Assembly (NCBI GenBank): GCA_029261595.1
Contig: JAJDAZ010000044.1
Coordinates: 31,377-95,376 of the forward strand
From: Nitrospinaceae bacterium
GTDB taxonomy: Bacteria > Nitrospinota > Nitrospinia > Nitrospinales > VA-1
DNA: 64,000 bases
Direction of reading: 5' to 3'
The position numbers and the translations under genes were made by a program. How positions within the stretch are numbered: the stretch's first letter is position 1; every line of letters begins with the position of its first letter. This document shows positions 6,568 to 43,021 of this stretch, piece by piece. A model generated the notes under the pieces. The model saw only the letters and a program-made list of their open reading frames with translations, was not told the origin of the DNA and did not search any database.

Positions 6568-6596
6568 GATAGGGGTCTTTTAAAATCTCGGAAAAA

Positions 6597-15024: not shown

Positions 15025-15077
15025 GATAAAGATATTTACCTTTTACCCCTCAATCCACGAAGAGTTTAAAAAGGCCA

Positions 15078-21867: not shown

Positions 21868-21942
21868 TTAAAAGGAGGTGCGTTTGGATTGTAACTAAAT
21901 TAGATTGCTAGTTTTATTTAAAAAATATTAATAGTTCGAATG

Positions 21943-22083
21943 CTTTCCAGTCGGGGAAGCCCGGTTAAATTCCGGCACTGTCCCGCAACTGTAATGGGTG
22001 TGAGAACCGCAGAAAGCCACTGTCATTGATGATGGGAAGGCGCGGTTGCTGTAGGCCCTGAGTCAGGATATCTGGCTGGAAGG
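21943..22083 (+). promoter_or_regulatory. cobalamin riboswitch aptamer, leader of btuB operon
   Basis: P1 pairs CTTTCCAG with CTGGAAGG. Core GGGGAAGCCCGGTTAAATTCCGGCACTGTCCCGCAACTGTAATGGG, B12 box AGCCACTG, then GGGAAGGCGCGG. The btuB RBS and ATG lie 20-35 nt downstream. Confidence 0.9.
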
Positions 22084-22118
22084 TATATTTAAAAATCCTT
22101 CGAGAGAAAGGAAGTTTT

Positions 22119-29477: not shown

Positions 29478-30635
29478 TTATTTCTTTTCGGGAAGAAGAG
29501 CCAAAAACTTTTCGATAACGTTCGGAAGATCAAATTTTTGAATCGCACCTTTTGCATTTTCTACCAATGAATCAGTGGGAGGGTCTTGCTCGAGAACCGA
29601 CAAAATTCTTTTTGTAAGAGTTGCTTCATCACCCAGAGGAACAAGGTATCCCGATTGTCCGTGTTCAATGATTTCTTTTGGGCCCCATGGACAATCGGTG
29701 GAAATCACAGGAGTCCCGCAACTCATGGCTTCCAAAATCACATTTCCAAAACCTTCCGACCGGGAGGTTAAAACAAAAACCTTAGCCTTTGAAACATACC
29801 GGTATGGGTTATTTTCAAAACCAAGAAAACAAACTGAATCGTTCAGTTCGAGCTTAGCGACCATTGTTTCAAGTTTTATTTTTAAAGGTCCATCACCCAC
29901 AATTAAAAGTCGGGCTGTTTTTTTAAGCAGTACTTTTTGAAAAGCCCTAACCAGGGTTTCATGATCCTTCTGTTCTACCAGCCGGGCGACATTGATTATA
30001 ATGGGTATTGTGGATGCGAACCAGGGGTGATCCACCTCCTGTAATGAAAGGGTTTCTACCTCATTTAAATTGCAGGGGTTGTATAGAGTCGTCACCTTGT
30101 CCGGTGGTAAGGCTATGTTCTCCAGGAGATATTTTCTTAACCCCTCTGAAACCGCGATTATCCTATCCGCTGTTGGGTACAGCTTTCTGGCTAGGAAACC
30201 GGGAGGGGTTGGAAAAACTCCTTCCTGTCTGATAATGCAAAAGGGACGCTTTTGTGCCGGAATGAGCTTTAAGGCAATCAGGGTTTGAATATTGGCTAGT
30301 TGCAGGGAGGAAACAAGAATATCTGGAGCAAATTTTTGTATCGCTTCAGCGAGTTTAGAGTAATAACGGAAAAGGAAAAGAAGTTTTCCAGGGCCTCTTT
30401 TTTTGGTGAATCGATTAATTATTTCTGTGGATATTACTGGGTTCAACCGATAATTATTCGTTTCCTCTGAAAGGAATATTTTACATGAATGGCCCAATCG
30501 GGAGAGTTCGTTGACAAAAGTGGCACAGGTTTTCTCAGCCCCGCCATAATCAAGGTTTGGAATGATAAAGGCAAACCGGTATTTTTTTGAATTATTCATA
30601 TTGCAGGGGAATGGATAATGAAATACCTGGGCCAA
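29478..30635 (-). CDS. glycosyltransferase family 4 (GT-B)
   Basis: The C-terminal SRSEGFGNVILEAMSCGTPVISTD region is typical of Glycos_transf_1. Confidence 0.8.
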   Translation of the reverse strand: MAQVFHYPFPCNMNNSKKYRFAFIIPNLDYGGAEKTCATFVNELSRLGHSCKIFLSEETNNYRLNPVISTEIINRFTKKRGPGKLLFLFRYYSKLAEAIQKFAPDILVSSLQLANIQTLIALKLIPAQKRPFCIIRQEGVFPTPPGFLARKLYPTADRIIAVSEGLRKYLLENIALPPDKVTTLYNPCNLNEVETLSLQEVDHPWFASTIPIIINVARLVEQKDHETLVRAFQKVLLKKTARLLIVGDGPLKIKLETMVAKLELNDSVCFLGFENNPYRYVSKAKVFVLTSRSEGFGNVILEAMSCGTPVISTDCPWGPKEIIEHGQSGYLVPLGDEATLTKRILSVLEQDPPTDSLVENAKGAIQKFDLPNVIEKFLALLPEKK

Positions 30636-30643
30636 TAATTGTG

Positions 30644-31738
30644 TCAGGCAATTTTTTGATACGATGTTTTAACGGACAATACTTCAGATGTTGTTGTTCC
30701 GGGAGGAACCAAGGGCGTATTGCGGTATTTCCAGGCGCCCAGCCAATTCCCGAATAACACGTTTGTGTGTTTCAAAATTAAATAAAGAGAATATAAAAGG
30801 ACTCCTCCGGGTTTTCCAAATGATTGTGTAACGTCGTCCAAAATGATTCGAGTCGCGGGATAAACGAATAAATATCTATATAATGCGAACAATGAAATTA
30901 ATACAATCACCGTCAATACAGGATTCGCGATCGAAAAAATTAAAGCGAACGGTAATATTATAAGGAAGACCGTTTCCAGTTTTCTGGCGAATGGTCGCCA
31001 GCCACGTTCGGGGGTAAGGAGTTTTCTGGTGAGGCCCCATAATGTGGCGCTCTTCCACTCGGTAATTATCCAGTCCCATAAATTGTCCGGACGCTCATGG
31101 TAAACCACCGCTTCGGGCGCCGGTTGATAAATAAATTTGTCTTTGATTTTATATTGCAGCGATACTTCATCTCCCCTGGAAGAAAAGTTTTCAATGAATC
31201 CCCCAACGGTCAGGAAAACATTTTTTCGTATGGCCATATTGCAACCGATAAAATGATTTAAATAAATATCAGGACCGAAATATTGTTTGTGGCGAATGAT
31301 CTGGGCCAATCGGGCGATGGATGAATCGTTATTCAAAAGTTCAATTTTTCCGCCGGAATAATCGGCGTTGCCGTTTTTGAAGGGCTCATTATAGCCTGAC
31401 AACCAGTCAGGATGCGCAATCGCGTCTCCGTCGATATAAACCAGAATGTCTCCCCTGGAATAACTTATTCCGGTGTTTCGAGCGATGGCAAGACCTCCGT
31501 GTCTAATTTTAATGTATTGAATAGGGATTGATGAATCCTGCTGTCCGGTCAAACAGTCGGTTGCGATTTCTTCCGTTTTGTCAGTGGATTCATCATCAAC
31601 CACGATTATTTCATATTGGCTTTTAGGAAAATTCTGGTTGATGAGACTCTCCAAACATGACCGCAAGAGTTTTTCTTCATTGTACGCGCATACAATGACT
31701 GAAAAAAAAGGCGGGTGATTGTCAGTCTGATTTGTCAT
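30644..31738 (-). CDS. glycosyltransferase family 2 with C-terminal transmembrane region
   Basis: The ATG at 31738 (ATGA overlap with the upstream gene) gives MTNQTDNHPPFFSVIVCAYNEE. VDDESTD and YIDGDA (DxD) motifs. The C-terminal ~110 aa contain several hydrophobic helices. Confidence 0.8.
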   Translation of the reverse strand: MTNQTDNHPPFFSVIVCAYNEEKLLRSCLESLINQNFPKSQYEIIVVDDESTDKTEEIATDCLTGQQDSSIPIQYIKIRHGGLAIARNTGISYSRGDILVYIDGDAIAHPDWLSGYNEPFKNGNADYSGGKIELLNNDSSIARLAQIIRHKQYFGPDIYLNHFIGCNMAIRKNVFLTVGGFIENFSSRGDEVSLQYKIKDKFIYQPAPEAVVYHERPDNLWDWIITEWKSATLWGLTRKLLTPERGWRPFARKLETVFLIILPFALIFSIANPVLTVIVLISLFALYRYLFVYPATRIILDDVTQSFGKPGGVLLYSLYLILKHTNVLFGNWLGAWKYRNTPLVPPGTTTSEVLSVKTSYQKIA

Positions 31739-32976
31739 GCCAAAACTAAATCTCTTAAAATTGAAAAGGTTTTGGTGAGGGGTATGGAGTCGATGATTCT
31801 GGGCTGAATCCGGTTTCCATAGATGATACAAATCCCCTGGCTTTCAGGTAATTGAGGATCGTATCCGTGCATTCCTTTGTCCTGATGAGTTTTATGAAAG
31901 AAGTCCGGATGCACCAGAACTCCTGGATTGGTCCACCAGATCAGGTCGCCATATTTTGTGTCAGGCCAGGGAATATTATTTTCTGCGGTTAACGTGTCAT
32001 CAAAAAATTCCCCCTGATTTTTGAATGCGCTCGAGGATTGGATTGCCTCTGGAAACACTCTTTTGGCCTTGTCGGATAAAAACCAGACCCGCATCAGAGT
32101 GGAATCCAAAAAATAAATGAAATCCTTTTTTAATTTTAAGCCGAGGGATTTAGCTAAGGCTGAAAGATGATTTCCGGCATCGAAAGATTGTGTTACAGGA
32201 ATCATCCCATGATCTCCAAGGAAAACAAAATTGGAATCCGGAATCAATTGTTGAAATTTTTCCGTAAAACTTTTTAAGTCACCGTCCATTTGATTCAGGG
32301 CTCGATTCAACTCATCCGATTCAGGGCCGAATTTGTGGCCATAATGATCGGGCGCCGAGATATAAATCAGGGTAAGGTCATGAGCCCGTTCTTTTGCTTC
32401 GTCCAGAACCATTTGTAAACGATCTTCATCCGATCCATTTGCCGGCAGATTCAGGGCAGTGAAAGAGTCGTAAAAGTAGCTTCCGCCTGCCTTCTCGATG
32501 AGTGACAAAATGGATGGCGTCGGAAAAGCGTTTTCGTTGCGATGGTCTGTCTGGTCTTCCGTCAACGACCAGTAGGACAGGAGAGAAACCGGAATTTCGT
32601 AGGGGCTCATTCCTGAAGACCTTCGCTTTAAATACCGCTTCATTCGGTATTTGTAAAAATGGTAAAGCCTTTGGGAAAAATCCTGACCCAAAAGACGGAA
32701 AACATTTAGAATTAAAAACTCCATCCATTCTAAAACCGGTAAGCCTTTAATATCTTTGAATGGGCTGTTCTCCGGATCGTATCCGATGGCGGTAAAAAAT
32801 CCCGACTGCTTTGGGTGAAGGCCGGTTAAAATTTCTGTTCTCTCACAGTATCCCAGTCCCGGGCGAACGGTTTTATAATATTCGCCTCTTTGGGAACAGG
32901 ATGCCAAAAATGGCGTATGCTTCTCCGTTAAATAGTCGTGCCTGAAGGCATCCATTAATATTAAAACAGTTGGCAT
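31735..32976 (-). CDS. alkaline-phosphatase-superfamily enzyme, type I phosphodiesterase/nucleotide pyrophosphatase (NPP) family
   Basis: VLILMDAFRHDYL, CERTEILTGLHP (nucleophile-Thr region), SAPDHYGHKFGP and FLGDHGM metal-ligand motifs. Confidence 0.75.
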   Translation of the reverse strand: MPTVLILMDAFRHDYLTEKHTPFLASCSQRGEYYKTVRPGLGYCERTEILTGLHPKQSGFFTAIGYDPENSPFKDIKGLPVLEWMEFLILNVFRLLGQDFSQRLYHFYKYRMKRYLKRRSSGMSPYEIPVSLLSYWSLTEDQTDHRNENAFPTPSILSLIEKAGGSYFYDSFTALNLPANGSDEDRLQMVLDEAKERAHDLTLIYISAPDHYGHKFGPESDELNRALNQMDGDLKSFTEKFQQLIPDSNFVFLGDHGMIPVTQSFDAGNHLSALAKSLGLKLKKDFIYFLDSTLMRVWFLSDKAKRVFPEAIQSSSAFKNQGEFFDDTLTAENNIPWPDTKYGDLIWWTNPGVLVHPDFFHKTHQDKGMHGYDPQLPESQGICIIYGNRIQPRIIDSIPLTKTFSILRDLVLA

Positions 32977-34052
32977 TAGACTTCCATCCGCATTTTGGCC
33001 ACGGCAACCCTTGCCTGATTCCAGGTCAAGTCCCGGGGCACGGTGGAACGCACCTGGCGCATGAGCTTTATTCCACGATTGAGGAGAGGGGCATTGATTT
33101 CCCCGGATTCATAGGCCGTTGCAATATAAACCTGGGCTATTTGAACCGCAATTCGGTTCTCGTTAGATAAATTCAGATTTCGCAGGAAAGTTTTTATTCG
33201 TCCTACGAGCAATTTTGGATGGTATTTTAAATGGTTCTCGAGATCACGGGCGCAGGTTATCGGGGTTCCGTATAGTTTGGATAACAAGGAAAACATTTCC
33301 AGGAAAAAGCGGGTTTGGACTTTATTGTAAAGTTCTTTAAGTTCTTGGTTATTCATCACAGGAGCTTTGGGCTGTAATTTTTCCTTTAATGCCCAATCAT
33401 TCAATTGGATCATTGAATCGTTTTTGGGGAACAGGGTTGTAAGACGTGTTTGCCTTTCCCGGTAACTTGGATGATAGGATTTTTTTTGAAGCAGAAGAAC
33501 ATCCACAATAGCCAGAATTGCTTTTGCCATTTGGTTTCTGAAAAACCGGGATTCATCATCCGCAAGACTTTGCTCAAGCCCCCTGTCGTTCAGGCAACCT
33601 AAAAGCGTCCAGATCCGGGTGAAAAATAATTCCTCACCTTCTTTTAACGGGAGGTTAGACGGGTCCATCGATGGGATTGAATCCAGAATATTTTTATCGC
33701 CGTCAATGACCTTGCTGGCGTACTTTAAATCATAATTAAAAATGGTCGGCGTCAGTACGCGCAGTTGCTCCGGTGTTTTTTGCGTCAGGTTAATCCAACG
33801 GATACCGATTTGCTCTGCAAGTTGATCGCCCAGCGATTTTAGAATTTCCGGGGGTTGGGGCTGGGAGGTGACCAGCACGATGTCATAATCGTTGTACGGG
33901 TGCAATCTACCATCCGGGCCTTCGTACCAGCTCCCTTCGTCCCGTCCGTACCCACCGTACAAAATTGTTGATATATATTTTTTGGTATCCAGGCTGGTTT
34001 TGATAAGTTCAATATCTTCATTATACCTGGAGGCTATGATAGAAATATTCAT
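32976..34052 (-). CDS. unknown protein; weak Pol-beta-type nucleotidyltransferase signature plus helical C-terminal domain
   Basis: ILYGGYGRDEG...NDYDIVLV resembles the hG[GS]...DxD NTase core, but with a long insert. The rest gives no recognisable motif. The CDS is real by operon context (1-nt and 4-nt overlaps). Confidence 0.35.
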   Translation of the reverse strand: MNISIIASRYNEDIELIKTSLDTKKYISTILYGGYGRDEGSWYEGPDGRLHPYNDYDIVLVTSQPQPPEILKSLGDQLAEQIGIRWINLTQKTPEQLRVLTPTIFNYDLKYASKVIDGDKNILDSIPSMDPSNLPLKEGEELFFTRIWTLLGCLNDRGLEQSLADDESRFFRNQMAKAILAIVDVLLLQKKSYHPSYRERQTRLTTLFPKNDSMIQLNDWALKEKLQPKAPVMNNQELKELYNKVQTRFFLEMFSLLSKLYGTPITCARDLENHLKYHPKLLVGRIKTFLRNLNLSNENRIAVQIAQVYIATAYESGEINAPLLNRGIKLMRQVRSTVPRDLTWNQARVAVAKMRMEV

Positions 34053-35203
34053 GAGCTTTGAATCATTTTTTGATAGGCCTGTTCGACCTGTTCCATATTA
34101 TCTCTGAAGTTACCTTTTGCTTTTGCTATTTCAAGATTTCTCTCAATGGCCTTTTTTCGGAATTGGTCGTCATCAAGCGCTTCAAGAATTAAGGGAGCCA
34201 GGAATTCCGGATTTATTTCCTTTAATAGATAGCCGTTGAATCCATTTAAAACCCATTCGATATTGGTTGAAATGTCGCTCACAATAGGAAACGACCCCGA
34301 AGCGAAGCCTTCTGCGAGCGTGGCCGGGGACCCTCCGTCCCAGGAGGGAATGGAGATCCAGATATCCGCCAGGTTGAAATAATGAGGCATCGAGGTATGG
34401 CTTTCGTCCGGGGTTTCATTTCTTCCAACAAACCGGACGTGATCTTCGATGTTGAGGTCTTTGGCAAGTTGTTTGAATTCAGGCTCCAGATTTCCCTGGG
34501 TGATAAAATATTTAAAAATAAAAACCACATTTTTTGTTTTCTCAATGACCCTGGGGATGGATTTCAGGATCGTATCAATATTGTATTTTGACCCGAATTG
34601 CCGGGGGCTGAGAATGACCCGGCAATGATCCCCAATGTCCAATTTCTCTCTCAGGTCTGCCACGTCCAGTCCGGGTTTGAACTGATTCAGATCCGCTCCC
34701 CAGTGAATATTGAAGGAATGCTTGAGCGGTCCCGAAAACTTAAATGTTTCTCCGATCATGATATTGGATTGAGCGATCACCCCGTCCAGCCTGCTTAAAG
34801 CGGATGTTACCTGATTGCGCGCCTGGGTGGATTGAAAAGGTTGTTTCAAAACGTCCGCTCCCCAGGGAGTGAACACCAGGGGATGGAAACCCGAGAAGCA
34901 AGCGGCTTTTCCAAATTCAGTCAGGCTGTGTACATGGACAATATCTGGATTCTCGCTTTGAATTATTTTTTTTATCACCCGTTGGCGGCCCCAGTCGCCC
35001 AGGCGTTTGATCATGGGTCTTCCGCTATCGATTGATATTATTTTTATTCCATTCAATTCGTTTCCCAGTTTGACTTTGTAGGACTGCAAAGGGGCATGGA
35101 TCACACTCACGCTGTGGCCCTTGTCAAAGAAATATTTTCCGTATCTTTGCAGGAGCGTGTTTTCCGTGTCGCCGATGAATAGAATTTTCATGTTTGCGGT
35201 CAT
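34049..35203 (-). CDS. glycosyltransferase family 4 (GT-B)
   Basis: MKILFIGD N-terminus and C-terminal GGSPATLAEGFASGSFPIVSD region. 4-nt overlaps on both sides. Confidence 0.75.
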   Translation of the reverse strand: MTANMKILFIGDTENTLLQRYGKYFFDKGHSVSVIHAPLQSYKVKLGNELNGIKIISIDSGRPMIKRLGDWGRQRVIKKIIQSENPDIVHVHSLTEFGKAACFSGFHPLVFTPWGADVLKQPFQSTQARNQVTSALSRLDGVIAQSNIMIGETFKFSGPLKHSFNIHWGADLNQFKPGLDVADLREKLDIGDHCRVILSPRQFGSKYNIDTILKSIPRVIEKTKNVVFIFKYFITQGNLEPEFKQLAKDLNIEDHVRFVGRNETPDESHTSMPHYFNLADIWISIPSWDGGSPATLAEGFASGSFPIVSDISTNIEWVLNGFNGYLLKEINPEFLAPLILEALDDDQFRKKAIERNLEIAKAKGNFRDNMEQVEQAYQKMIQSS

Positions 35204-36057
35204 TTTGTCATTACAAAAAACAGATCCAGAGAACTTTCGATATTATTTTCTGTAAGAAAGTAATCGGATTCTGAAAAAGAATTCCATCCTCTCCGATCCG
35301 GCTCCGGGCACGTCGCCTGCCGTGAAGCAGGAGTCTTGGAAGAAGTATTTTGTGGCGCCGGTTGGCCCTGGGCGCGGCTGTTCAAAAATGAGTTGATCAA
35401 TGATGCCCGGATTTGTTTGAGAAACCTGGGGACGTTTCTGTATTTACGGAGTCTTGTGATTTCCACATCCATGATTTGCTGGCTTGCTGAAACACCGTAT
35501 GCATTCACTGCATTGAAAAAGGGCCGGGTGGCCTTAAGTAATTCTTTGGGGCTGTATTCCTTCAGATGGAACTCATTCATCGGCTTTTGGAATTTATAGC
35601 ACCTCAACAAACGGTTTGGAGTCGTTATCAATGCCCTGGCATCCTTTTTTAGAAGACGATTGATTTCCGCCAGATAACCTTTAACGTTATGAACGTGTTC
35701 GATCACCTGAAAAGACAGGATGAGATCGAAAGTATTGTCCTTAAAGGGAAGAGGTTTTTCCGGGTCCACCAAATCAAAGCTGACCGCTTCATCACCGAAC
35801 GTTGCATTGGCGTGGGCAATGGCTTCCGGAGAATTGTCCAACCCCTGATAGGATTGAAAATGCCCGGTCATTATTTTCGATCCATAACCCGTCCCCGATC
35901 CAAAATCGAGAACCTTGCTGTCCGGAGTTGAGTGATTTTGGGCCAAACGGTAAGCCGCCTGGTGGCGTAAAAACATTAGATATTCATGCAGGGTCGGCCA
36001 TTGGTCGATGGGCCTGTCTGCGATCCTTTCATGGGTGAAGCCGGCGGCGTGCGTCAT
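35200..36057 (-). CDS. class I SAM-dependent methyltransferase
   Basis: The ATG at 36057 (ATGA overlap with the flippase gene). Motif I VLDFGSGTGYGS, and post-I/II motifs (LDNSPEAI, FDLILSFQVIEH). Confidence 0.8.
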   Translation of the reverse strand: MTHAAGFTHERIADRPIDQWPTLHEYLMFLRHQAAYRLAQNHSTPDSKVLDFGSGTGYGSKIMTGHFQSYQGLDNSPEAIAHANATFGDEAVSFDLVDPEKPLPFKDNTFDLILSFQVIEHVHNVKGYLAEINRLLKKDARALITTPNRLLRCYKFQKPMNEFHLKEYSPKELLKATRPFFNAVNAYGVSASQQIMDVEITRLRKYRNVPRFLKQIRASLINSFLNSRAQGQPAPQNTSSKTPASRQATCPEPDRRGWNSFSESDYFLTENNIESSLDLFFVMTK

Positions 36058-37478
36058 ATCCCTTCCCTTGAAAGTACATTTTTTAAAAAGGCGGTTTTGA
36101 AATAATCGGACATATGCAGAAAAGTGATCAATGAGCACCCGGCAAACAGGGCAATAAAAAGAATCGATGTCGAAACCGCCTGGACATTTTTCAGGAAATA
36201 AAGAGTGTAAATTAAAATTGAATAATGAAGCGCCGGTTTCAATAAATGTTTGAAGCTTAAACTCATGACATACTTATTCACCAGAATCCCCATGATGGTG
36301 ATGCCAATAATGTGCGCCAGTAAAATCCCTGTGGCCGCCCCGATGATTCCATGATAAAGGGTGCCAACGTATACGAGAAGAGATACGGAGCACGCACCAT
36401 ATATGGTCATGTAGAATTGTATTTTTGTTTTTCCCTTATAAAGAATAATCGGGTCCCAATAGGCGGTAACGGCTTTAAGCGTCGTTAACACCATCAGAAT
36501 TTGAAACGGTGTGGTGGCGGGAATCCATTTGGCTCCAAAAAGGAAGGTTATGATTTCCTCCCCCATCATGAGAATGAATGTGGTGGGAATCATATAAAAG
36601 ACCGCCGTGATTTTGGTCAGCTTCTCGAAACCATATTTAATATCTTCCGAATTTCCAATTTTTGTGAAAGCCGGATAGACCACAGAGAAAATGGCCGACC
36701 TTAACTTCAGAAAAAAATGGGTGGTTTGAAAAGCGAACCAGTAATACCCCAATTGTTGTGGGCCCAATAGATCTCCGACAATGTAATAATCCACATTCCA
36801 GTATAGGAAAATCAGAAAACTGCTGCCCAGGAGAGGCATTCCATAACCTGCCACATCGCGGATGATTTTTGGATCCCAGCAAAAATGCGGACGGTAAGGG
36901 CTGATCGCCCAGATAATGATAATTTCAGAAACAGAAAATATTAAGTGCGACGCGATCAGACTCCACACCCCATAGCCCATATAGGCCAGAGTGATGGCGC
37001 AAACACCGCTGATGACCTGCGCGCATAGGGACGGGAAACGGGCTTTCCAAAAGGACAGTTCTTTTTCGAACAGACATTTGGGTCGGGACAACGGGCCATA
37101 GAAAAGTGCGAATATCAGGAATTGCACCAGAGTGGTGATTTCCGGTTTTCCGAGAAAATTTAACAGGTAGGGGGCAACCCATAATATTAATACGATGAAA
37201 ATGCCGGAAAGAGTCAGTTCCAGAGTGAATATATTATTTAGTTTCGATTGAAGGTCGTCCTTTTCTTTAATTAAAAATTTTTCTCCATGCAGACTCGTGA
37301 GGGTCGCAAAAAACATCACCACAATGTTGGCAAACGCGAATGCTCCAAAATTTTCGGGTTCCAGCAATCTTGCCAAAACCATTTGGATGGCCAGGGCGAT
37401 TACATATTGAACTCCCGTAGTACCGAGTACGATCGCCAGTCCGCGTGTGGATTTGTTGATTACTTTTTGTCTATCCAT
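36054..37478 (-). CDS. Wzx-like polysaccharide/oligosaccharide flippase (MOP superfamily)
   Basis: 474 aa with ~12-14 hydrophobic spans. The N-terminal pattern GTTGVQYVIALAIQMVLARLLEPENFG is typical of Polysacc_synt proteins. Confidence 0.75.
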   Translation of the reverse strand: MDRQKVINKSTRGLAIVLGTTGVQYVIALAIQMVLARLLEPENFGAFAFANIVVMFFATLTSLHGEKFLIKEKDDLQSKLNNIFTLELTLSGIFIVLILWVAPYLLNFLGKPEITTLVQFLIFALFYGPLSRPKCLFEKELSFWKARFPSLCAQVISGVCAITLAYMGYGVWSLIASHLIFSVSEIIIIWAISPYRPHFCWDPKIIRDVAGYGMPLLGSSFLIFLYWNVDYYIVGDLLGPQQLGYYWFAFQTTHFFLKLRSAIFSVVYPAFTKIGNSEDIKYGFEKLTKITAVFYMIPTTFILMMGEEIITFLFGAKWIPATTPFQILMVLTTLKAVTAYWDPIILYKGKTKIQFYMTIYGACSVSLLVYVGTLYHGIIGAATGILLAHIIGITIMGILVNKYVMSLSFKHLLKPALHYSILIYTLYFLKNVQAVSTSILFIALFAGCSLITFLHMSDYFKTAFLKNVLSREGI

Positions 37479-37484
37479 TATTTT

Positions 37485-38603
37485 TTAATGAGGAGTTTCT
37501 TGTAAACATTCTTGAGGTTCCGTATTTGATAATTCGGCCTCGATGATTTCAGTCAGTTTTTTCTCTCTGGCTTCCAGGGGATATTTGTCCATGATTCTCG
37601 CTCTTGCCTTGTGACCCTCCATTTTCATGGCTTTCCGTAAACCCGCTTTGATTTCATCCATATTCATGGAGTCAACGACCACACCGGTGTCGCCAATAAT
37701 TTCTGGGATGGAACTGATATTGAGCCCTACCGGAACGCATTCGCAAAGCATGGCTTCCGAAAGAACGTTGGGCATTCCCTCGGCGCGTGACAGGCACATG
37801 ATGACTTTTGCCTTTTGATAATGTGCGGGAAGAGCATGGTTGGGTACGTAGGGGAGGATGGCCAGGTTGTCTGGAAGGTTCACCCATTGTCCGACCCGTT
37901 CCGGGTCGGCCCCCACCAGCGTGAACTTGTATTCCGGAACGTTGGCCGCCAGTTGAATAAAAGTATCGGCGCCTTTAATTTTAAAGGTTTGAAAATTCAT
38001 TATGCTCCCCACCAAAATAACTTCTTCCGCTCTTGTTGTCTGACCATTGACCTTGAAGTGGGAGGCCCGGTACCCATTTGGAATCACTACAATTTTTTTT
38101 GAATCTATTTCCGGATACAGGGTCTTGATTCCCTGCTTTTTGATTTTTAATCCCAAAACCTTTCCCCGATCCCGAACCAGGGATTCACTGACCGGAAATA
38201 ATCGGTTGGCAGTCTGAAGCGTGAAACGGGTAAAAAACCGTGAGCGTTTGTTTCCGTAAGTTCCATAATTCAATTCAGGAATCCATGTGGCATCGAAGCC
38301 TCCCACAATCACAAACAACTTTTTTCCGAACAGGCGTGCGAAAATGGAAAAGAAAAACCCATAAACATCCGCGAATCTCAAAACCAGCCCATCGCATTGA
38401 CGAATATTTTTTAACAGCCAGATAAGGACTTTTGCATAAGTGAGCAGGGCCGTAGGAACGGTGCTGTAGTACTTTAGATAGAAGGATTTCAAGTCAAAGT
38501 GCTTTTTCAAAATTTCTTCGTCTTGCCTGACGAAGGGCAAGGTTTCGTGACTCAGGAATAAAAGGCGCCTGTTTTTTTGAGGTCGTCCGGGTATGTTGGC
38601 CAT
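37485..38603 (-). CDS. glycosyltransferase family 4 (GT-B)
   Basis: SRAEGMPNVLSEAMLCECVPVG region. The ATG at 38603 (MANIPGRPQKNRRLLFLSHE) is preferred over the longer track ORF. Confidence 0.75.
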   Translation of the reverse strand: MANIPGRPQKNRRLLFLSHETLPFVRQDEEILKKHFDLKSFYLKYYSTVPTALLTYAKVLIWLLKNIRQCDGLVLRFADVYGFFFSIFARLFGKKLFVIVGGFDATWIPELNYGTYGNKRSRFFTRFTLQTANRLFPVSESLVRDRGKVLGLKIKKQGIKTLYPEIDSKKIVVIPNGYRASHFKVNGQTTRAEEVILVGSIMNFQTFKIKGADTFIQLAANVPEYKFTLVGADPERVGQWVNLPDNLAILPYVPNHALPAHYQKAKVIMCLSRAEGMPNVLSEAMLCECVPVGLNISSIPEIIGDTGVVVDSMNMDEIKAGLRKAMKMEGHKARARIMDKYPLEAREKKLTEIIEAELSNTEPQECLQETPH

Positions 38604-38882
38604 CGTGATAGGGACAAAATTACTGGAATGGAATGCTTTTAAAACCCGTTTGGGCCATGAGCCAAATGGAAACGGTTCGGACCTTAAAGAAACCGGAGTT
38701 CTCATTAAGTCAATAAAATCAATACCTTCAGTCTTCTATTATAGGGCCTGGCGAGGGAGAAGTCCATTCCAAGTTGCTTGTCAGGTGCGTTACAGGTGGA
38801 AATTCAAGGTAAAACAGATAGAAAGGGCCGAACCTCCAAAACCGGCTGGCGAGAATATGGAAGGATTAAATTGGGGGGTCAG

Positions 38883-39791
38883 CTAACCATGGGCATTTGA
38901 AAACGCGTCGATGATATTTTGCAGATTGTTTGCCGGCGTGCTGTCTGGTTCTTTGATAAAAAATGGGGTCATTTCATCCACCGAATCCCGGACCCGGTCG
39001 CTTTCAATTAAATACCCCAGATAAACGGGTTCCACGCCAAGATATTTTTTAACCAGTTCAATGAGATTTTCTCCTGCCTTTAAATCCTTTTCATAGCGAA
39101 TCCGGTTGGCAATCAAACAAGGTCTGAAAGAATCTATAATCATATCGACCACCAATACCTGTTTCGGGTCGATGGCCGAAAGTTTTTCTTTGAGGATGTC
39201 TATAGAATGTGTTTCCATATCCGCAAGTGTTGGGTCCGAATGGTCCACCAGCCGTATTAGGTTTTCCTGATTCCTGAACAGAATGCTTATTCTCCGAAAC
39301 AGCGCCGCGCGGATAAAGCTGAAGGTTTTCATGACTGAGGTCAATTCAGGAGTGGTGATTATCATGCCTGAATCGGCCAGATTGAAAAAATCCACCACGG
39401 CATAACTCACACCGGGAGAAAGGTCCAGAAACACGTAGTCCGCATCCAGGTTACGAATGTTATCCCGGACAATGCCTAAAGTTTCGCTGTTTATGTCCGC
39501 GCTTCCAGGGTTATCTCCAGCCGCACAAATCAATTGAAGGTTGTCGATTCCTGTTTCCAGAAGAAGCGAAGGGGAGTGATTGGAGTTTTTTTGAAAAAAA
39601 TTGATGAAACCCAGAGGAGGATTTTTCACACCCAGCAAGGCATGCAGGTTGGAGGACCCGAAGTCAGTGTCCACCAGCACCACCTTCTTTCCACTTAAAG
39701 CAAGACCCACAGCAAGATTGGTACAGATGACACTTTTCCCAATACCGCCTTTGCCTCCGCCCACAGCAATGATGTGTTCCGGTGAAACCAT
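38883..39791 (-). CDS. ParA/MinD/FlhG-family P-loop ATPase
   Basis: Deviant Walker A GGGKGGIGKS with signature Lys, VVLVDTDFGSSN (A'/switch) and Walker B YVFLDLSPG. No obvious MinD-type C-terminal amphipathic helix. Confidence 0.85.
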   Translation of the reverse strand: MVSPEHIIAVGGGKGGIGKSVICTNLAVGLALSGKKVVLVDTDFGSSNLHALLGVKNPPLGFINFFQKNSNHSPSLLLETGIDNLQLICAAGDNPGSADINSETLGIVRDNIRNLDADYVFLDLSPGVSYAVVDFFNLADSGMIITTPELTSVMKTFSFIRAALFRRISILFRNQENLIRLVDHSDPTLADMETHSIDILKEKLSAIDPKQVLVVDMIIDSFRPCLIANRIRYEKDLKAGENLIELVKKYLGVEPVYLGYLIESDRVRDSVDEMTPFFIKEPDSTPANNLQNIIDAFSNAHG

Positions 39792-39856
39792 TCCTTTTAT
39801 TCCCGCGATCGATACGAAATATGGAGCTAGGCCGCTATTCTATCAGGGAAGAGCAA

Positions 39857-41095
39857 TTATTCCGGCTTTTTCTGATCTTTCAGGAAAATGAAAGATTCGA
39901 GTGATTCCTGATATTCTTTATCCGCGGAGATGCTTTTTGGGGGGGAGGTGGTTTCTGTTGTATTGAGAGTGGTGCTGAAAGAGGTGTTTTGTTCCTGCGA
40001 GGCTTCCGTGGTTTCCGGTTCGTGGATTTTCGCATCGAATCGGTCTTCCAGGTTTTTCTGGAATGATTTTAAATGAGTTATAACATCGGAATTTTCGAGT
40101 GAGGCCTCTTTTGTGCCAACGGGAAAGTCCTGGGACACTGGGGCCTGCGAGGGTGGAGAGGGGTCTATATTATTTTCAGGTTTTTCCGGGACCGATTTTT
40201 TTTTTTGCGTTTCAAATACCAGAGGCTCGGGCTCAGCGTTGATTTCTACAGAAGCGGTCTCCTGGTTTACATCGTCAGTCGGATATTTCTGCCTCAGTTT
40301 TTTGATGGCCATTTTCATCTTGGCTTTCAGGTCATCGGCTTCCTGATCAACGGGGTCGGGAGAATCGGCTTCAGCAGAATCGACTTCGGCTTCGTCAAAG
40401 CTGTGTTTGGATAGTGCGACCAGTTCCCGGTCCTCATCGCTGATTTGCAGATCTTCAAAATATTGATCCACATATTCAGCTTCCGCACTGCTGGAACTTG
40501 CGGGCTGGCTGGTTTCAATATCGCTTTCATCCTCCCAGGGAGATAACTCAGGATCTTCATCATCCTCTTCAAGTTGCAGGTCCAATGTGTTTGTTGAAAG
40601 AAACTCGTCGGTCGATTCCTGGTCCAGAGTGATCTGCTTTGTAAAGGAAGATGCTTCCGAATCCCCGGAACCGGACTCGTCTGCAACGTTAAAATCGGGA
40701 TAGTCGTTTTTATGATTCAATTCAAGAACCGTCTGATTGTAGCCTGGTTCGGAGGCCTCATTCGTGGGAGTTTGATTTGCGGGGCTCTTGAATTTTTCCT
40801 GTAAGTCGATCAAGGGTTTTTCAAATTCAAATTCCTTCATCTCATCCATCAACAGGTCAAGCCGTTCGCTCGCTTCCGTATTTGATTTTTTTGCCCGAAC
40901 CAGGGTGTAGGGCAATCCAATCAGCGCCAGCACAGTGAGGATTGAAGCCAGGGGATTTTCCAGAACTTTATCCCAGAAAGGTTTCAGAACATTTAAAAAT
41001 TGAAAATTTTCCGGGTCCAGCAATAACTCCAAACGGAGAAGGAAGGATTCCCAGATTTCGCGAATGTTAAAGTTTTCGAAAAAGACTTCCATCAT
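39857..41095 (-). CDS. single-pass membrane protein with ~340-aa highly acidic, low-complexity (predicted disordered) cytoplasmic tail; unknown function
   Basis: One TM helix (PLASILTVLALIGLPYTLV) followed by RAKKS (positive-inside). The remainder is D/E/S/T/P/Q-rich with no recognisable domain. Confidence 0.6.
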   Translation of the reverse strand: MMEVFFENFNIREIWESFLLRLELLLDPENFQFLNVLKPFWDKVLENPLASILTVLALIGLPYTLVRAKKSNTEASERLDLLMDEMKEFEFEKPLIDLQEKFKSPANQTPTNEASEPGYNQTVLELNHKNDYPDFNVADESGSGDSEASSFTKQITLDQESTDEFLSTNTLDLQLEEDDEDPELSPWEDESDIETSQPASSSSAEAEYVDQYFEDLQISDEDRELVALSKHSFDEAEVDSAEADSPDPVDQEADDLKAKMKMAIKKLRQKYPTDDVNQETASVEINAEPEPLVFETQKKKSVPEKPENNIDPSPPSQAPVSQDFPVGTKEASLENSDVITHLKSFQKNLEDRFDAKIHEPETTEASQEQNTSFSTTLNTTETTSPPKSISADKEYQESLESFIFLKDQKKPE

Positions 41096-41437
41096 GAGTT
41101 GGAAAAATATTCTGGGAAAAAAGCCCGATCGGGAAACAATTCCCCGATTAAGTCCTTAGAAAACAAAAATATTAAGAAACCTAAAAAAGTTATGTTACAA
41201 CCAACGGGCCTCAACCGGAGTTGAAAGCATAAAGCCCGATTTGCCAGCATATTATCTTACCACAGTCATTGAAAAAGTAGAATCCCATAAACGGGCTGTC
41301 ATTGATTTAAATGTTTGAATTTTTTCCGGACGGCTCCTAATCGGGACGGGTTAAAGTTCCAGGATGAAAATTTCGTAACGTTAAAAATGATATAATCCGT
41401 TGCCAAAAATTATTGATGGAACCCTTCAGGTCGGTTT

Positions 41438-42175
41438 ATGGAAAAAATTTCGGTTACGGTGATCACTCTCAACGAGGAAAAGAACATTGAGAGATGCCTG
41501 GAAAGCCTGCAATGGGCAGACGAAATCGTTGTTCTGGACAGCTTCAGCTCCGACCGGACGGTGGAAATCTGCCGCCAGTATACCGAAAAAGTTTTCCAGG
41601 AAAAATGGCAGGGTTTTGGCAAACAGAAAAATCTTTGCGCCTCAATGGCCAGCCAGAAGTGGGTCTTGAACATCGATGCCGATGAAGTGGTCAGTCCGGA
41701 GTGCGCCAGAGCCATCCGGGAGGAGTTGAAAAACGGGCCGGGGCATCCGTTGTACCGGTTTCCCCGCAAGAATTTTTTCAATAATCGCTGGGTGCGTTAT
41801 GGAGGATGGTATCCCGACAGGATTTCAAGATTTTATGATAAAACCAAAGTCTCTTTCAAGGAATCCAGGGTGCACGAAAAACTTGCCCCGGAGGAAGATT
41901 GCGGCTTCATAGGTGAGCCTTTGCTCCATTATACCTATGACGGGCTGGCGGATTACATGGACCGGCTGAATCGGTATTCCACACTTTTTGCCGAAGAGAA
42001 GGCCCAGTCAGGGTGGACCGCCGGCTGGACTCATCTTTATCTTCGGCCTCCGCTGACGTTTTTCAAGAACTTCGTGGTGCGTCAGGGGTTCCGGGAAGGG
42101 TTTCTGGGGATGTTTCTGGCCTTGTCGTCCGCGTTTTATACCTACCTGAAATACGCCAAAACCCGAAAAATTTGA
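41438..42175 (+). CDS. glycosyltransferase family 2 (small LPS-core/WaaE-like type)
   Basis: ISVTVITLNEEKNIERCLESL..ADEIVVLDSFSSDRT and NIDADE (DxD) motifs. 245 aa. Confidence 0.8.
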   Translation: MEKISVTVITLNEEKNIERCLESLQWADEIVVLDSFSSDRTVEICRQYTEKVFQEKWQGFGKQKNLCASMASQKWVLNIDADEVVSPECARAIREELKNGPGHPLYRFPRKNFFNNRWVRYGGWYPDRISRFYDKTKVSFKESRVHEKLAPEEDCGFIGEPLLHYTYDGLADYMDRLNRYSTLFAEEKAQSGWTAGWTHLYLRPPLTFFKNFVVRQGFREGFLGMFLALSSAFYTYLKYAKTRKI

Positions 42176-42364: not shown

Positions 42365-43021
42365 TTGGACAAGACCCAATTATTGATACTGATGACACCC
42401 GTCGTATTGTTTTCTCTGACGGTGCACGAATATTCCCACGGGAAGGTGGCTCTTCTGCTGGGCGACGACACCGCTAAACGCCTGGGCAGGTTGACCTTCA
42501 ATCCTCTGAAACATCTGGACATGATGGGGGTTTTGTTCTTTTATTTTGTGGGCTTCGGGTGGGCCAAGCCGGTTCCCGTGGATTGGCGGAATTTTCAAAA
42601 CCCCCGCCGCGACATGATGTACGTGGCCCTTGCCGGGCCGTTATCCAACGTGGCCCTGGCGGTGGTGTGCAGTTTTTTTATCCGCATCATTTCACCCCAG
42701 GACAGTTATATTGCCTTTATATTGCTCAGTTTCGGGGTTTTTATCAACGTGGCCCTGGCGATTTTCAACATGCTTCCGGTGGCGCCGCTGGATGGCGGAA
42801 GCGTGATTAAAGGGCTGGTCTCTCACGAAATGGCCGAGACCCTGTCCCGATACGATAAGTTTGGCGCTGTCCTCATTCTGGGGATTTTCCTGATGGATCA
42901 CTTTGCGCACACAGGAATTCTCGGAAAGATCCTGGGGTTGCCGATCAACTATACGGTCCTGTTTTTGACCCAGGAATCGTTTCCCTATCTGCAACAGGTT
43001 TTAATGGCGAGTTTTGGCTGA
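42365..43021 (+). CDS. site-2 protease family (peptidase M50) membrane metalloprotease
   Basis: HEYSHG (HExxH), GRLTFNPLKHLD and NMLPVAPLDGG motifs. TTG start after GAGG-N6. Confidence 0.8.
   Translation: MDKTQLLILMTPVVLFSLTVHEYSHGKVALLLGDDTAKRLGRLTFNPLKHLDMMGVLFFYFVGFGWAKPVPVDWRNFQNPRRDMMYVALAGPLSNVALAVVCSFFIRIISPQDSYIAFILLSFGVFINVALAIFNMLPVAPLDGGSVIKGLVSHEMAETLSRYDKFGAVLILGIFLMDHFAHTGILGKILGLPINYTVLFLTQESFPYLQQVLMASFG

What the first reader, a model, noticed from the sequence alone, without database searches (positions are those of the whole stretch)
38883..41095. ParA/MinD-like ATPase paired with a membrane-anchored, ~340-aa acidic disordered protein at the head of the glycan operon
Seen: gene 39857-41095 encodes a protein with one TM helix followed by RAKKS. 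The positive-inside rule places the tail in the cytoplasm. The long tail is rich in D/E/S/T/P/Q with no recognisable domain. 65 nt downstream on the same strand lies a 302-aa ATPase with a complete deviant Walker A (GGGKGGIGKS), A' (VVLVDTD) and Walker B (YVFLDLSPG), but no MinD-like C-terminal membrane-targeting helix and no BY-kinase Tyr cluster. A 178-nt gap separates it from the first glycosyltransferase.

Established: ParA/MinD ATPases act with dedicated partner proteins, often small or disordered, to position cellular cargo (division sites, flagella, chemoreceptor arrays, carboxysomes, cellulose synthase via BcsQ).

Inference: the acidic membrane protein could be the adaptor or cargo tether of this ATPase, possibly localising the adjacent glycan-assembly machinery. 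This pairing is not one I recognise.
Basis: partly seen in the sequence, partly recalled or inferred. Interest (0 to 1): 0.6.

Follow-up and report, generated by a model that had tools for sequence, protein, structure and literature searches.

The report
Membrane-tethered partner of an orphan MinD-like ATPase
Nitrite-oxidising Nitrospinota almost always encode a MinD/FlhG-like ATPase directly after a membrane-anchored, mostly disordered protein that ends in an invariant short peptide. This is probably a new membrane-tethered ATPase–partner module, and it is kept whether or not sugar-chain genes lie next to it.

Summary
Both genes exist as described, on the minus strand: X (39857-41095, 412 aa, one TM helix, pI 4.2, no family hit) and a 302-aa deviant-Walker-A ATPase (38883-39791). 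The organism is a Nitrospinota bacterium.

In 65 non-redundant Nitrospinota loci, 61 of 63 upstream same-strand ORFs end in L-[ED]-S-F-[ILV]-F-x3-Q-[KR]-K. 54 of 57 full-length ones have an N-terminal TM helix with N-out/C-in charge flanks. Length (170-971 aa) and even acidity vary, so the anchor and the C-terminal peptide are the constrained parts.

The ATPase has a FleN/FlhG/MinD-like fold but fails the MinD, FlhG, BcsQ and BY-kinase tests. It belongs to a broad uncharacterised subfamily.

The glycan link is weak. The cca gene follows the ATPase directly in 44 of 59 loci, including all close relatives examined (L005 has other non-glycan genes). About 12 lineages carry variable glycan genes in that slot.

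My best reading is that X tethers and probably regulates the ATPase at the inner membrane through its C-terminal peptide; the cargo is unknown. The closest described analogue is FlgV next to FlhG. No interaction was tested.

The parts
39857..41095 (-). Gene X: a 412-aa bitopic membrane protein (N-out/C-in) with a long acidic, mostly disordered cytoplasmic tail. It is a Nitrospinota-specific family with no annotation.
   Evidence: ORF. No Pfam, NCBIfam or PADLOC hit. Homologues found only in Nitrospinota and all unnamed. AlphaFold2 predicts it mostly disordered.
40898..40954 (-). Transmembrane helix, residues 48-66 (PLASILTVLALIGLPYTLV). N47, P48 and P62 are invariant.
   Evidence: Hydropathy maximum 1.93 at residue 48. 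Invariant columns. TM helix present in 54 of 57 full-length homologues.
40796..40897 (-). Juxtamembrane basic cluster (RAKKS) followed by a conserved helix (RLDxLMDEMKEFE...PLIDL), residues 67-100.
   Evidence: Nearly invariant columns R78, L79, L82, E85, M86, F89, E90, K93, P94. 3-6 K/R after the TM helix in all clades.
40286..40342 (-). Conserved helical island, residues 252-270 (DDL-x-x-M-x-x-A-I-x-K-L). Homologues carry 1-3 copies, consensus LQxEMExTIxxL.
   Evidence: pLDDT 73-89. A motif copy is found in 37 of the 63 X proteins scanned.
40025..40087 (-). Conserved helical island, residues 337-357 (VITHLKSFQKNLEDRF).
   Evidence: pLDDT 65-85. Nearly invariant I339, T340, H341, L342, S344, F345, E350.
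39860..39913 (-). Extreme C-terminal peptide YQESLESFIFLKDQKKPE. The family motif is L-[ED]-S-F-[ILV]-F-x3-Q-[KRN]-K. It is the proposed docking or regulatory peptide for the ATPase.
   Evidence: Present in 61 of 63 upstream ORFs. Per-position counts: L60/61, S59/61, F56/61, F58/61, Q59/61. Predicted helix 391-408. Low helical hydrophobic moment, so it is not MTS-like.
39792..39856 (.). 65-nt intergenic spacer between X and the ATPase gene.
   Evidence: The equivalent gap is -4 to 110 nt in the homologous loci that carry the motif.
38883..39791 (-). 302-aa ParA/MinD-superfamily ATPase with a FleN/FlhG/MinD-like fold. It is an orphan subfamily member lacking both an N-terminal enhancer helix and a C-terminal membrane-targeting helix.
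   Evidence: Pfam ParA/CbiA/AAA_31. AlphaFold2 pTM 0.81. Foldseek best hits FleN and FlhG. 55-85% identical across Nitrospinaceae.
39732..39761 (-). Deviant Walker A, GGGKGGIGKS (signature Lys14, catalytic Lys19).
   Evidence: Invariant in 33 homologues.
39663..39683 (-). Walker A' (switch I), VVLVDTD.
   Evidence: D41 and D43 are invariant.
39411..39437 (-). Walker B, YVFLDLSPG.
   Evidence: D123 is invariant.
39501..39521 (-). Family-specific invariant loop AGDNPGS (residues 91-97), unstructured in the model. Candidate partner surface (inference only).
   Evidence: Invariant A91, G92, D93, P95, G96, S97. pLDDT below 50 for residues 91-98.
38738..38766 (-). Sigma-70-like promoter match (TGGACT-17-TATAAT, 10 of 12) in the 177-nt gap before the first glycosyltransferase. 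Weak hint that the glycan genes are transcribed separately.
   Evidence: The number of matches in the region is not above the shuffled expectation.
29478..38705 (-). Context, not part of the module: an 8-gene variable glycan cluster (GT4, Wzx-type flippase, methyltransferase, GT4, unknown, phosphodiesterase, GT2, GT4). It occupies the slot between the ATPase and cca.
   Evidence: Pfam and NCBIfam hits. Absent in 44 of 59 homologous loci. GC 0.441 against 0.481 elsewhere.
41438..42175 (+). Context: divergently transcribed 245-aa GT2 glycosyltransferase, conserved next to X in most Nitrospinota.
   Evidence: Missing in clade L053-L061, where X is retained, and in L071, where X is also missing.

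Best explanation
X and the ATPase form a self-contained two-gene module specific to Nitrospinota.

X is an N-out/C-in single-pass inner-membrane protein. Its cytoplasmic part is a long, variable, low-complexity spacer carrying a few short conserved helices. It ends in an almost invariant hydrophobic-plus-basic peptide (L-E-S-F-I-F-x-K-x-Q-K-K).

The ATPase is a dimerising deviant-Walker-A enzyme of the MinD/FlhG structural type. It has neither its own membrane-targeting helix nor the FlhF-activating helix of FlhG.

Proposed mechanism (inferred, not shown): the ATP-bound ATPase dimer is captured at the cytoplasmic face of the inner membrane by the C-terminal peptide of X, so the membrane-targeting sequence is supplied in trans. 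The basic end of the peptide modulates ATP hydrolysis, as partner peptides do in other ParA/MinD systems. The conserved TM and juxtamembrane segment of X connects the module to a still unknown membrane-embedded client.

The neighbouring glycan genes occupy a hypervariable slot and are not required for the module.
For: Shown:
- X is present upstream of the ATPase in 61 of 63 loci, with its C-terminal motif conserved. Over the same range the rest of X diverges so far that tblastn detects it in only about 14 loci.
- A TM helix is present in 54 of 57 full-length X proteins, with consistent positive-inside flanks.
- Gaps between the two genes are -4 to 110 nt, including overlapping or abutting genes in L059 and L060.
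- The adjacency survives rearrangement of either flank.
- X-seeded look-ups return the same pair.
- All catalytic motifs of the ATPase are invariant.
- The ATPase has a FleN/FlhG/MinD fold.
- It has no helix after the core and no DQAxxLR motif.

Supporting analogies:
- ParA/MinD partners act through short charged terminal peptides (PMC10241942).
- FlgV, encoded next to FlhG, has the same design: TM anchor, variable polar disordered tail, and a conserved hydrophobic and basic C-terminal peptide (PMC10802407).
- Relatives of this ATPase in other phyla carry fused acidic tails, or are followed by a protein with a long disordered linker.
Against: - No interaction was tested.
- The whole region (ileS-trpS-M50-GT2 / X-ATPase-cca-hydrolase) is syntenic across the phylum, so adjacency alone is weaker evidence than the numbers suggest.
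- One cultured strain (Nitrospina sp. 32_T5, L071) keeps an apparently intact ATPase with no X at the locus.
- L065 has an acidic upstream protein with no TM helix and no motif.
- The docking peptide is C-terminal, whereas described partners use N-terminal peptides.
- The cargo is unknown.
Confidence: 0.5

Rival explanations
1. Glycan-machinery positioning. The pair localises or regulates the polysaccharide assembly proteins encoded next to it, in the way BcsR-BcsQ acts for cellulose synthase or CapA-CapB for capsule.
For: In this window the pair sits directly upstream of eight glycan genes on the same strand. About 12 other lineages carry different glycan-type genes (AsnB-like, sugar oxidoreductase, GT4, Wzx) in the same slot. 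GT4a identity tracks ATPase identity (75/66, 60/64 and 45/51%), which suggests an old association. A GT2 gene is conserved on the other side of X.
Against: 44 of 59 loci have cca directly after the ATPase and no glycan genes, including close relatives L086-L088. The pair is equally conserved in those genomes. Gene content of the slot is unrelated between lineages, and it is on the opposite strand in L006. A promoter-like site lies in the gap. The BcsQ and BY-kinase model scores are far below cut-off.
Confidence: 0.15
2. Flagellar or polar-landmark module. The ATPase is an FlhG-type regulator and X is a HubP/FimV- or FlgV-like membrane landmark, together controlling flagellar or polar organisation.
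For: The best structural matches are FleN and FlhG. JGI labels the ATPase homologues 'FlhG' and one X homologue 'FimV'. Nitrospinota core genomes encode flagellar genes (PMC5029188). FlgV shares X's design and sits next to flhG.
Against: No DQAxxLR enhancer helix and no C-terminal MTS (features defined in PMC12826062). No flagellar gene is found in any of about 65 loci. FlgV family members, including those of Nitrospinota, are reported to lie without exception in flagellar superoperons with flhF-flhG, so a canonical FlhG probably exists elsewhere. X has one TM helix and no intramembrane Arg, no LysM domain and no FimV C-terminal domain.
Confidence: 0.15
3. Neighbours by inherited synteny only. 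X and the ATPase have unrelated functions. For example, X could be a membrane scaffold or a substrate of the nearby M50 protease, and the ATPase could act alone.
For: The whole block, from ileS to the hydrolase gene, is syntenic across the phylum although its genes are functionally unrelated. L071 keeps the ATPase without X, with only conservative changes at near-invariant sites.
Against: X-ATPase adjacency persists at both synteny breakpoints. The genes are co-oriented with very short or negative spacing. The strongest constraint in X is a cytoplasmic terminal peptide, which is typical of a docking motif. L065, at 39% ATPase identity and with different flanks, still has an acidic disordered protein upstream.
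Confidence: 0.17
4. A split BY-kinase-like co-polymerase: a membrane adaptor plus a cytoplasmic P-loop kinase, as in CapA/CapB.
For: Weak hits to TIGR01007 and TIGR03018 and to CapA-CapB chains. The membrane protein is upstream, and its cytoplasmic C-terminus could activate the P-loop protein. The pair lies next to glycan genes in this window.
Against: TIGR01007 scores 47.3 against a cut-off of 108.05. The Walker A carries the MinD/ParA signature lysine (KGG). There is no C-terminal tyrosine cluster in the window protein or its 325-aa orthologues. X has no Wzz domain and only one TM helix. The glycan genes are absent in most genomes.
Confidence: 0.03

Closest known systems
FlhG with FlgV (flagellar superoperon; PMC10802407)
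   Same: A MinD-type ATPase is encoded next to a small membrane-anchored protein. That protein's cytoplasmic part is a disordered, highly polar tail of variable length ending in a short conserved peptide with several hydrophobic residues and a basic residue. The ATPase here is structurally closest to FleN/FlhG.
   Different: X has one TM helix (FlgV has two, with a conserved intramembrane Arg). X's tail is much longer: X is 170-971 aa, whereas B. burgdorferi flgV is a 480-nt ORF of about 160 aa. X lies upstream, not downstream, of the ATPase. The pair is never in a flagellar operon. The ATPase lacks the DQAxxLR helix and the MTS. No FlgV sequence was available for direct comparison.
HubP/FimV polar landmark with ParA1, ParC and FlhG (Vibrio; own knowledge, and PMC12826062 for its HubP role)
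   Same: A membrane-anchored protein with a very acidic, repeat-containing cytoplasmic region that recruits ParA/MinD-type ATPases. One X homologue is even labelled FimV by JGI.
   Different: No periplasmic LysM domain and no FimV C-terminal domain (no Pfam or NCBIfam hit). X is encoded in an apparent operon with one dedicated ATPase.
MinD-MinE/MinC and ParA-ParB/McdA-McdB partner logic (PMC10241942)
   Same: A deviant-Walker-A dimerising ATPase works with a dedicated partner encoded alongside. The partner acts through a short charged terminal peptide, and the rest of the partner is diverse or disordered.
   Different: Here the peptide is at the C-terminus and mainly hydrophobic. The partner is itself membrane-anchored. 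The ATPase has no MTS and no identified DNA-binding tail. No MinC, MinE or ParB is nearby.
BcsR-BcsQ at the head of cellulose synthase operons (own knowledge)
   Same: A small or unstructured protein is encoded directly upstream of a MinD-like ATPase, followed by polysaccharide synthesis genes.
   Different: The BcsQ model scores 32 against a cut-off of 157.85. There are no bcsA/B genes. X is a large membrane protein. Glycan genes are absent downstream in 44 of 59 genomes.
CapA-CapB / Wzc BY-kinase co-polymerases (own knowledge; PDB 3bfv and 4jmp hit weakly)
   Same: A membrane adaptor whose cytoplasmic C-terminal segment activates a MinD-related P-loop protein encoded next to it, at the start of capsule loci.
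   Different: No Wzz domain, no Tyr cluster, a MinD-type signature lysine, and model scores below cut-off.

Membership tests
ParA/MinD (deviant Walker A, SIMIBI) superfamily | Deviant Walker A KGGxGK[ST] with the signature lysine, plus the Walker A' and Walker B aspartates | tested here: met
   GGGKGGIGKS, VVLVDTD and YVFLDLSPG are present. K14, K19, D41, D43 and D123 are invariant in 33 homologues. Pfam ParA, CbiA and AAA_31 score above their cut-offs.
ParA/MinD (deviant Walker A, SIMIBI) superfamily | MinD/Soj-type alpha/beta fold | tested here: met
   AlphaFold2 pTM 0.81. Foldseek hits FleN, FlhG, MinD and Soj with E-values from 1e-13 to 1e-9 and TMt 0.7-0.8.
MinD (TIGR01968) | Score at or above the curated cut-off of the MinD equivalog model | tested here: not met
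   88.3 bits against a cut-off of 212.9. Only residues 6-155 align. E. coli MinD scores 62.8 bits over residues 6-158.
MinD (TIGR01968) | C-terminal amphipathic membrane-targeting helix | tested here: not met
   The protein ends 4 residues after the last core helix, 285-298. The 23-aa extension in the 325-aa orthologues is Gly- and charge-containing and is absent here.
MinD (TIGR01968) | minC and/or minE encoded alongside | tested here: not met
   None was found in the window or in about 65 homologous loci.
FlhG/FleN | N-terminal enhancer helix with the DQAxxLR motif (PMC12826062) | tested here: not met
   No motif match in 33 family members. Only 8-21 residues precede the P-loop. In the PDB alignments, query residue 6 matches FlhG residue 31.
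FlhG/FleN | C-terminal MTS | tested here: not met
FlhG/FleN | Encoded after flhF in a flagellar operon | tested here: not met
   No flagellar gene in any locus. Whether a canonical flhF-flhG exists elsewhere in these genomes could not be checked directly, but it is implied by PMC10802407.
BcsQ (TIGR03371) | Model score at or above the cut-off, and a bcs operon context | tested here: not met
   32 bits against 157.85. No bcsA/B genes.
BY-kinase (TIGR01007 / Wzc / CapB) | Model score at or above the cut-off, a C-terminal tyrosine cluster, and a Wzz-domain membrane partner | tested here: not met
   47.3 bits against 108.05. No Tyr in the last 30 residues. X has no Wzz (PF02706) hit.
FlgV (PMC10802407) | Two N-terminal TM helices with a conserved intramembrane Arg in TM2 | tested here: not met
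   There is a single hydrophobic window at residues 48-66, with no Arg inside it. In clade L053-L061 the TM helix starts at about residue 6 in L054, L056 and L059, and at residues 18-22 in L053 and L061, with no earlier helix.
FlgV (PMC10802407) | Variable polar disordered cytoplasmic tail ending in a conserved hydrophobic and basic peptide | tested here: met
FlgV (PMC10802407) | Located in the flagellar superoperon; sequence homology to BB0268 | tested here: not met
   Context is not met. Sequence homology could not be tested because no FlgV sequence was obtainable. X matches no Pfam or NCBIfam model.
HubP/FimV | Periplasmic LysM domain and a C-terminal FimV domain | tested here: not met
   No Pfam or NCBIfam hit for X at E<=0.01 (Pfam) or E<=0.001 (NCBIfam). 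The N-terminal ectodomain is at most about 47 aa and is absent in one clade.
ParA/MinD partner proteins (general; PMC10241942) | Direct binding to, and stimulation of, the cognate ATPase through a short charged terminal peptide | not testable with these tools
   A candidate peptide exists at the C-terminus. No co-folding or biochemistry was possible.

The most novel reading that the evidence does not exclude
Nitrospinota carry a previously unrecognised, non-flagellar counterpart of the FlhG-FlgV design. A MinD/FlhG-like ATPase has lost its own membrane-targeting and FlhF-activating helices. It is instead captured, and possibly switched, by the invariant C-terminal peptide of a single-pass membrane protein with a very long, evolvable disordered tether. 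This would be a 'membrane targeting in trans' positioning system for an unknown inner-membrane client. The client could be envelope-glycan machinery or a polar or division landmark.
Probability: 0.3. Interest if true: 0.65.

Novelty: new variant of a known kind. Interest (0 to 1): 0.45.

Why it matters
ParA/MinD ATPases organise chromosomes, division sites, flagella, chemoreceptor arrays and organelles. Many of them remain 'orphans' because their partners are too diverse to recognise (PMC10241942).

This work identifies a candidate partner family for one orphan clade, with a sharply defined and testable docking peptide. The clade belongs to the phylum that performs most nitrite oxidation in the ocean.

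If the mechanism holds, it would add two things:
- a variant in which membrane attachment is delegated to the partner;
- together with FlgV, a hint at a recurrent 'TM anchor, disordered tether, terminal peptide' solution for MinD-type ATPases.

The work also corrects database labels (FlhG, FimV). It shows that the slot between this ATPase gene and cca holds variable glycan genes in about a fifth of Nitrospinota species.

Tried and rejected
- **Profile searches for X outside Nitrospinota.** Only 28-35 hits, all Nitrospinota or unnamed. The word-based candidate filter is swamped by low-complexity sequence, so absence elsewhere is not proven.
- **Hydrophobic-moment test of the C-terminal peptide and of the ATPase C-terminus.** The peptide has a low helical moment, so it does not look like a membrane-targeting helix. 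The metric did not discriminate for the ATPase tails.
- **PDB search with the C-terminal peptide.** No hit.
- **PADLOC.** Only a weak P-loop match. Defence-system readings were dropped.
- **Search for decay of the ATPase in the X-less genome L071.** Seven mostly conservative changes at near-invariant sites, similar to L006. This gives no usable signal for an X-binding surface.
- **Contexts of distant ATPase relatives.** Heterogeneous: GYF_2, TPR, REC and DnaJ fusions, with amidase, helicase and TamB neighbours. No cargo could be inferred.
- **My first reading of the glycan cluster as a recent insertion.** I revised it, which showed glycan genes in the same slot in about 12 lineages and GT4a identity tracking ATPase identity.
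- **Literature searches for Min or FlhG in Nitrospinota.** No direct inventory was found. Only indirect statements turned up.
Full report
**Observation**

The two ORFs are real and lie on the minus strand: X at 39857-41095 (412 aa) and the ATPase at 38883-39791 (302 aa), 65 nt apart. A 177-nt gap separates the ATPase from the first glycosyltransferase.

X has one hydrophobic window (residues 48-66, PLASILTVLALIGLPYTLV) followed by RAKKS. Its tail (residues 73-412) has pI 4.13 and 84 D+E against 30 K+R, and 56% of it is D/E/S/T/P/Q. X matches nothing in Pfam, NCBIfam or PADLOC. AlphaFold2 predicts 224 of 412 residues below pLDDT 50.

The ATPase carries GGGKGGIGKS, VVLVDTD and YVFLDLSPG. It has no C-terminal tyrosines and ends four residues after its last core helix. 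The description is therefore confirmed.

**Organism and conservation**

Source names attached to the homologues identify a member of the Nitrospinota (Nitrospinaceae). The ATPase is 55-85% identical in hundreds of Nitrospinaceae contigs.

A scan of one genome per GTDB species returned 80 loci. After removing duplicates, 65 Nitrospinota loci remained.
- 63 of them have a same-strand ORF ending -4 to 110 nt before the ATPase (about 300 nt in L065 and L071, the two without the motif).
- 61 of those 63 end in the motif L-[ED]-S-F-[ILV]-F-x3-Q-[KRN]-K. Position counts are L 60/61, S 59/61, F 56/61, F 58/61 and Q 59/61.
- 54 of 57 full-length ORFs have an N-terminal TM helix.
- Length ranges from 170 to 971 aa, with a median of 466.

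Outside the anchor and the terminal peptide, X diverges so fast that tblastn with the window protein finds it in only about 14 loci.

In every clade the residues before the TM helix lack K/R, and 3-6 K/R follow it. The N-out/C-in topology, and hence a cytoplasmic tail, is a consistent prediction.

In one clade (L053-L061) X is roughly neutral in charge, and the TM helix starts at about residue 6-22. Acidity and the 45-aa N-terminal segment are therefore not essential features.

Other conserved islands are a juxtamembrane helix (67-100), residues 151-166, a helix with consensus LQxEMExTIxxL present in 1-3 copies (252-270 here), and a helix at 337-357.

Two look-ups seeded from X homologues landed on the same X-ATPase arrangement.

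There are three exceptions.
- Nitrospina sp. 32_T5 (L071) has lost X and the divergent GT2 gene but keeps the ATPase. Its ATPase has only conservative changes at near-invariant sites.
- L065 (39% ATPase identity, different flanks) has an acidic disordered protein upstream, with no TM helix and no motif.
- L058 has a short X of 170 aa.

**What the ATPase is**

Its catalytic residues are invariant. The model (pTM 0.81) is closest to FleN and FlhG, followed by MinD and Soj (TMq about 0.6-0.68, about 20% identity).

It fails each specific family test.
- MinD: 88 bits against a cut-off of 213, aligning over residues 6-155 only.
- BcsQ: 32 against 158.
- BY-kinase: 47 against 108.
- FlhG: no DQAxxLR enhancer helix and no C-terminal membrane-targeting helix. 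These hallmarks are as defined in PMC12826062.

No min or flagellar gene is found in the window or in any homologous locus.

A search of 1.84 billion cluster representatives found 457 clusters at E<1e-30. The best 150 listed align over most of the protein's length, mostly at 30-48% identity. The family is therefore a broad, unnamed subfamily distinct from MinD and FlhG, which reach only 55-63 bits over the N-terminal half.

Members of this subfamily are fused to a variety of modules:
- TPR arrays, a receiver domain and DnaJ;
- GYF_2;
- coiled coils, acidic tails and a roadblock-like module.

In Myxococcota the gene is followed, with a 4-nt overlap in L083, by a protein with a DnaJ-like N-terminus, a long Pro/Ala-rich disordered linker and a C-terminal HTH_25 domain.

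**The glycan genes**

The conserved arrangement is lgt-lspA-ileS-trpS-M50-GT2 (one strand) / X-ATPase-cca-hydrolase (other strand).

In 44 of 59 loci with enough downstream sequence, cca follows the ATPase within about 300 nt. This includes close relatives of the window (L086 at 74%, plus L087 and L088). L005 (78%) instead has other non-glycan genes.

About 12 lineages have glycan-type genes in that slot: AsnB-like amidotransferase, fused ADH/GFO oxidoreductase, GT4 and Wzx. Gene content differs between lineages, and in L006 the genes lie on the opposite strand.

GT4a identity to the window tracks ATPase identity (75/66, 60/64 and 45/51%). The slot therefore looks like an old, hypervariable and frequently emptied glycan locus rather than a recent insertion.

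The island has lower GC than the rest of the window (0.441 against 0.481). A sigma-70-like match lies in the ATPase-GT gap, which is weak evidence for separate transcription.

The pair is thus maintained independently of these genes. A general link to envelope glycans is not excluded.

**Mechanism**

Established knowledge is as follows. [quoted passage not shown] Partner proteins confer cargo specificity and act through a short charged terminal peptide (PMC10241942).

What is shown here is an ATPase of MinD/FlhG type without an MTS. Its constant neighbour is membrane-anchored and cytoplasmically exposed. The neighbour's most constrained element is a terminal peptide of hydrophobic and basic residues.

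I infer that X supplies the membrane anchor in trans and docks, and possibly regulates, the ATP-bound dimer through that peptide. The variable disordered region would act as a tether. The conserved TM and juxtamembrane part would contact an unknown membrane client. None of these steps was tested.

**Closest known system**

FlgV is encoded directly after flhG in flagellar superoperons. [quoted passage not shown]

X shares this design but differs in several ways:
- it has one TM helix instead of two;
- it has no intramembrane arginine;
- its tail is far longer;
- it lies upstream of its ATPase;
- it is never in a flagellar operon.

The same paper reports FlgV homologues in Nitrospinota, and states that all family members lie in flagellar superoperons persistently associated with flhF and flhG. 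This implies that a canonical FlhG exists elsewhere and that the ATPase studied here is an additional paralogue. I could not verify this directly.

HubP/FimV, BcsR-BcsQ and CapA-CapB are looser analogues. Each fails a defining feature, as listed in the membership tests.

**Verdict**

The adaptor idea is supported by strong comparative evidence but remains unproven. The glycan-localisation idea is at best a minority reading.

This is a new variant of the ParA/MinD-plus-partner theme, with a new partner family and a precisely testable docking peptide. Interest is moderate, because the cargo is unknown and no interaction was tested.

Noticed in passing
window 29478-38705; L003, L006, L007, L008, L047, L050, L053-L061: The slot between the ATPase gene and cca is a hypervariable glycan locus. 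It is empty in 44 of 59 species and filled with unrelated sets of glycan genes in about 12 lineages. Contents include GT4/Wzx/methyltransferase here, and AsnB-like plus fused ADH/GFO oxidoreductase elsewhere. In the window its GC is 0.441 against 0.481 for the rest.
   Followed up: partly
window 38883-38960 (ATPase 3' end); alignment A2 columns 300-334: Most orthologues are 325 aa and carry a conserved 23-aa C-terminal extension (TDLHLVKxDGRIFVSKQVRLxSGW). It is missing in the window protein and in its close 302-aa relatives. Its function is unknown.
   Followed up: partly
L071 (Nitrospina sp. 32_T5) 4978-6969: This cultured strain has the M50 gene directly divergent from the ATPase gene. X and the GT2 gene are both absent, while the ATPase looks intact. 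This matters when choosing an experimental organism. Ca. Nitrohelix vancouverensis (L002) carries a 622-aa X.
   Followed up: partly
window 42365-43021 (+) and X TM helix 40898-40954 (-): A small M50 (site-2-protease family) gene with HExxH and LDG motifs is conserved one or two genes from X, and is directly divergent to X in clade L053-L061. X's TM helix has invariant N47-P48 at its outer edge and P62 (invariant) with G60 (nearly invariant) inside. This is reminiscent of helix-breaking residues in S2P substrates, although X has the opposite orientation to classical substrates. Not tested.
   Followed up: no
window 41128-41148 (-): A 9-bp-stem hairpin followed by a T-run lies about 33 nt upstream of the X start codon on the coding strand, in the 342-nt divergent intergenic region. 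It could be a 5'-UTR structure or an attenuator. Its conservation was not checked.
   Followed up: no
L081 6902-7909; L083 6915-8486: In Myxococcota the related ATPase is followed by another protein, with a 4-nt overlap in L083. That protein has a DnaJ-like N-terminus, a 150-400-aa Pro/Ala-rich disordered linker and a C-terminal HTH_25 (RodZ-type) domain. This is another possible disordered-linker partner for the same ATPase subfamily.
   Followed up: partly
L067, L068, L073, L076, L077, L084; proteins P0151-P0194: The ATPase subfamily occurs fused to several modules. These are an N-terminal GYF_2 domain (KSB1, Cytophagia), C-terminal TPR arrays (700-750 aa), a receiver domain, DnaJ, K/E-rich coiled coils, acidic tails and a roadblock-like domain. 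The GYF_2 forms often follow an Amidase_3 gene.
   Followed up: partly
homologues P0014-P0119 and P0144: JGI labels the ATPase homologues 'flagellar biosynthesis protein FlhG' and one X homologue 'pilus assembly protein FimV'. Neither label survives the defining-feature tests, so they are likely automatic over-annotations.
   Followed up: yes
window 15065-15251 (-), 17264-17463 (+), 21932-22093 (+): Three cobalamin riboswitches (87-109 bits) control a cobalamin salvage and transport region. The region includes a TonB-dependent receptor, FecCD/ABC transporter, CobS, CobU-nitroreductase fusion, CobD, CobQ-like amidotransferases and CobT.
   Followed up: no
window 32976-34052 (-); 55331-56020 (+); L053 9277-10443: These ORFs have no Pfam or NCBIfam match. 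The 358-aa one sits inside the glycan cluster and might be a polymerase or ligase-type membrane protein. Not examined.
   Followed up: no
window 15488-17062 (+); 9122-10606 (-); 53207-55003 (+): Three unusual architectures were seen nearby: an MHYT-sensor/SpoIIE phosphatase fusion; a 494-aa protein with only a C-terminal TonB domain; and a 598-aa protein combining PG_binding_1, cytochrome c and a CarboxypepD_reg domain.
   Followed up: no
window 35200-36138 vs 36054-37478 (-): The listed GTG start of the methyltransferase ORF overlaps the flippase gene by 85 nt. The true start is probably further downstream.
   Followed up: no
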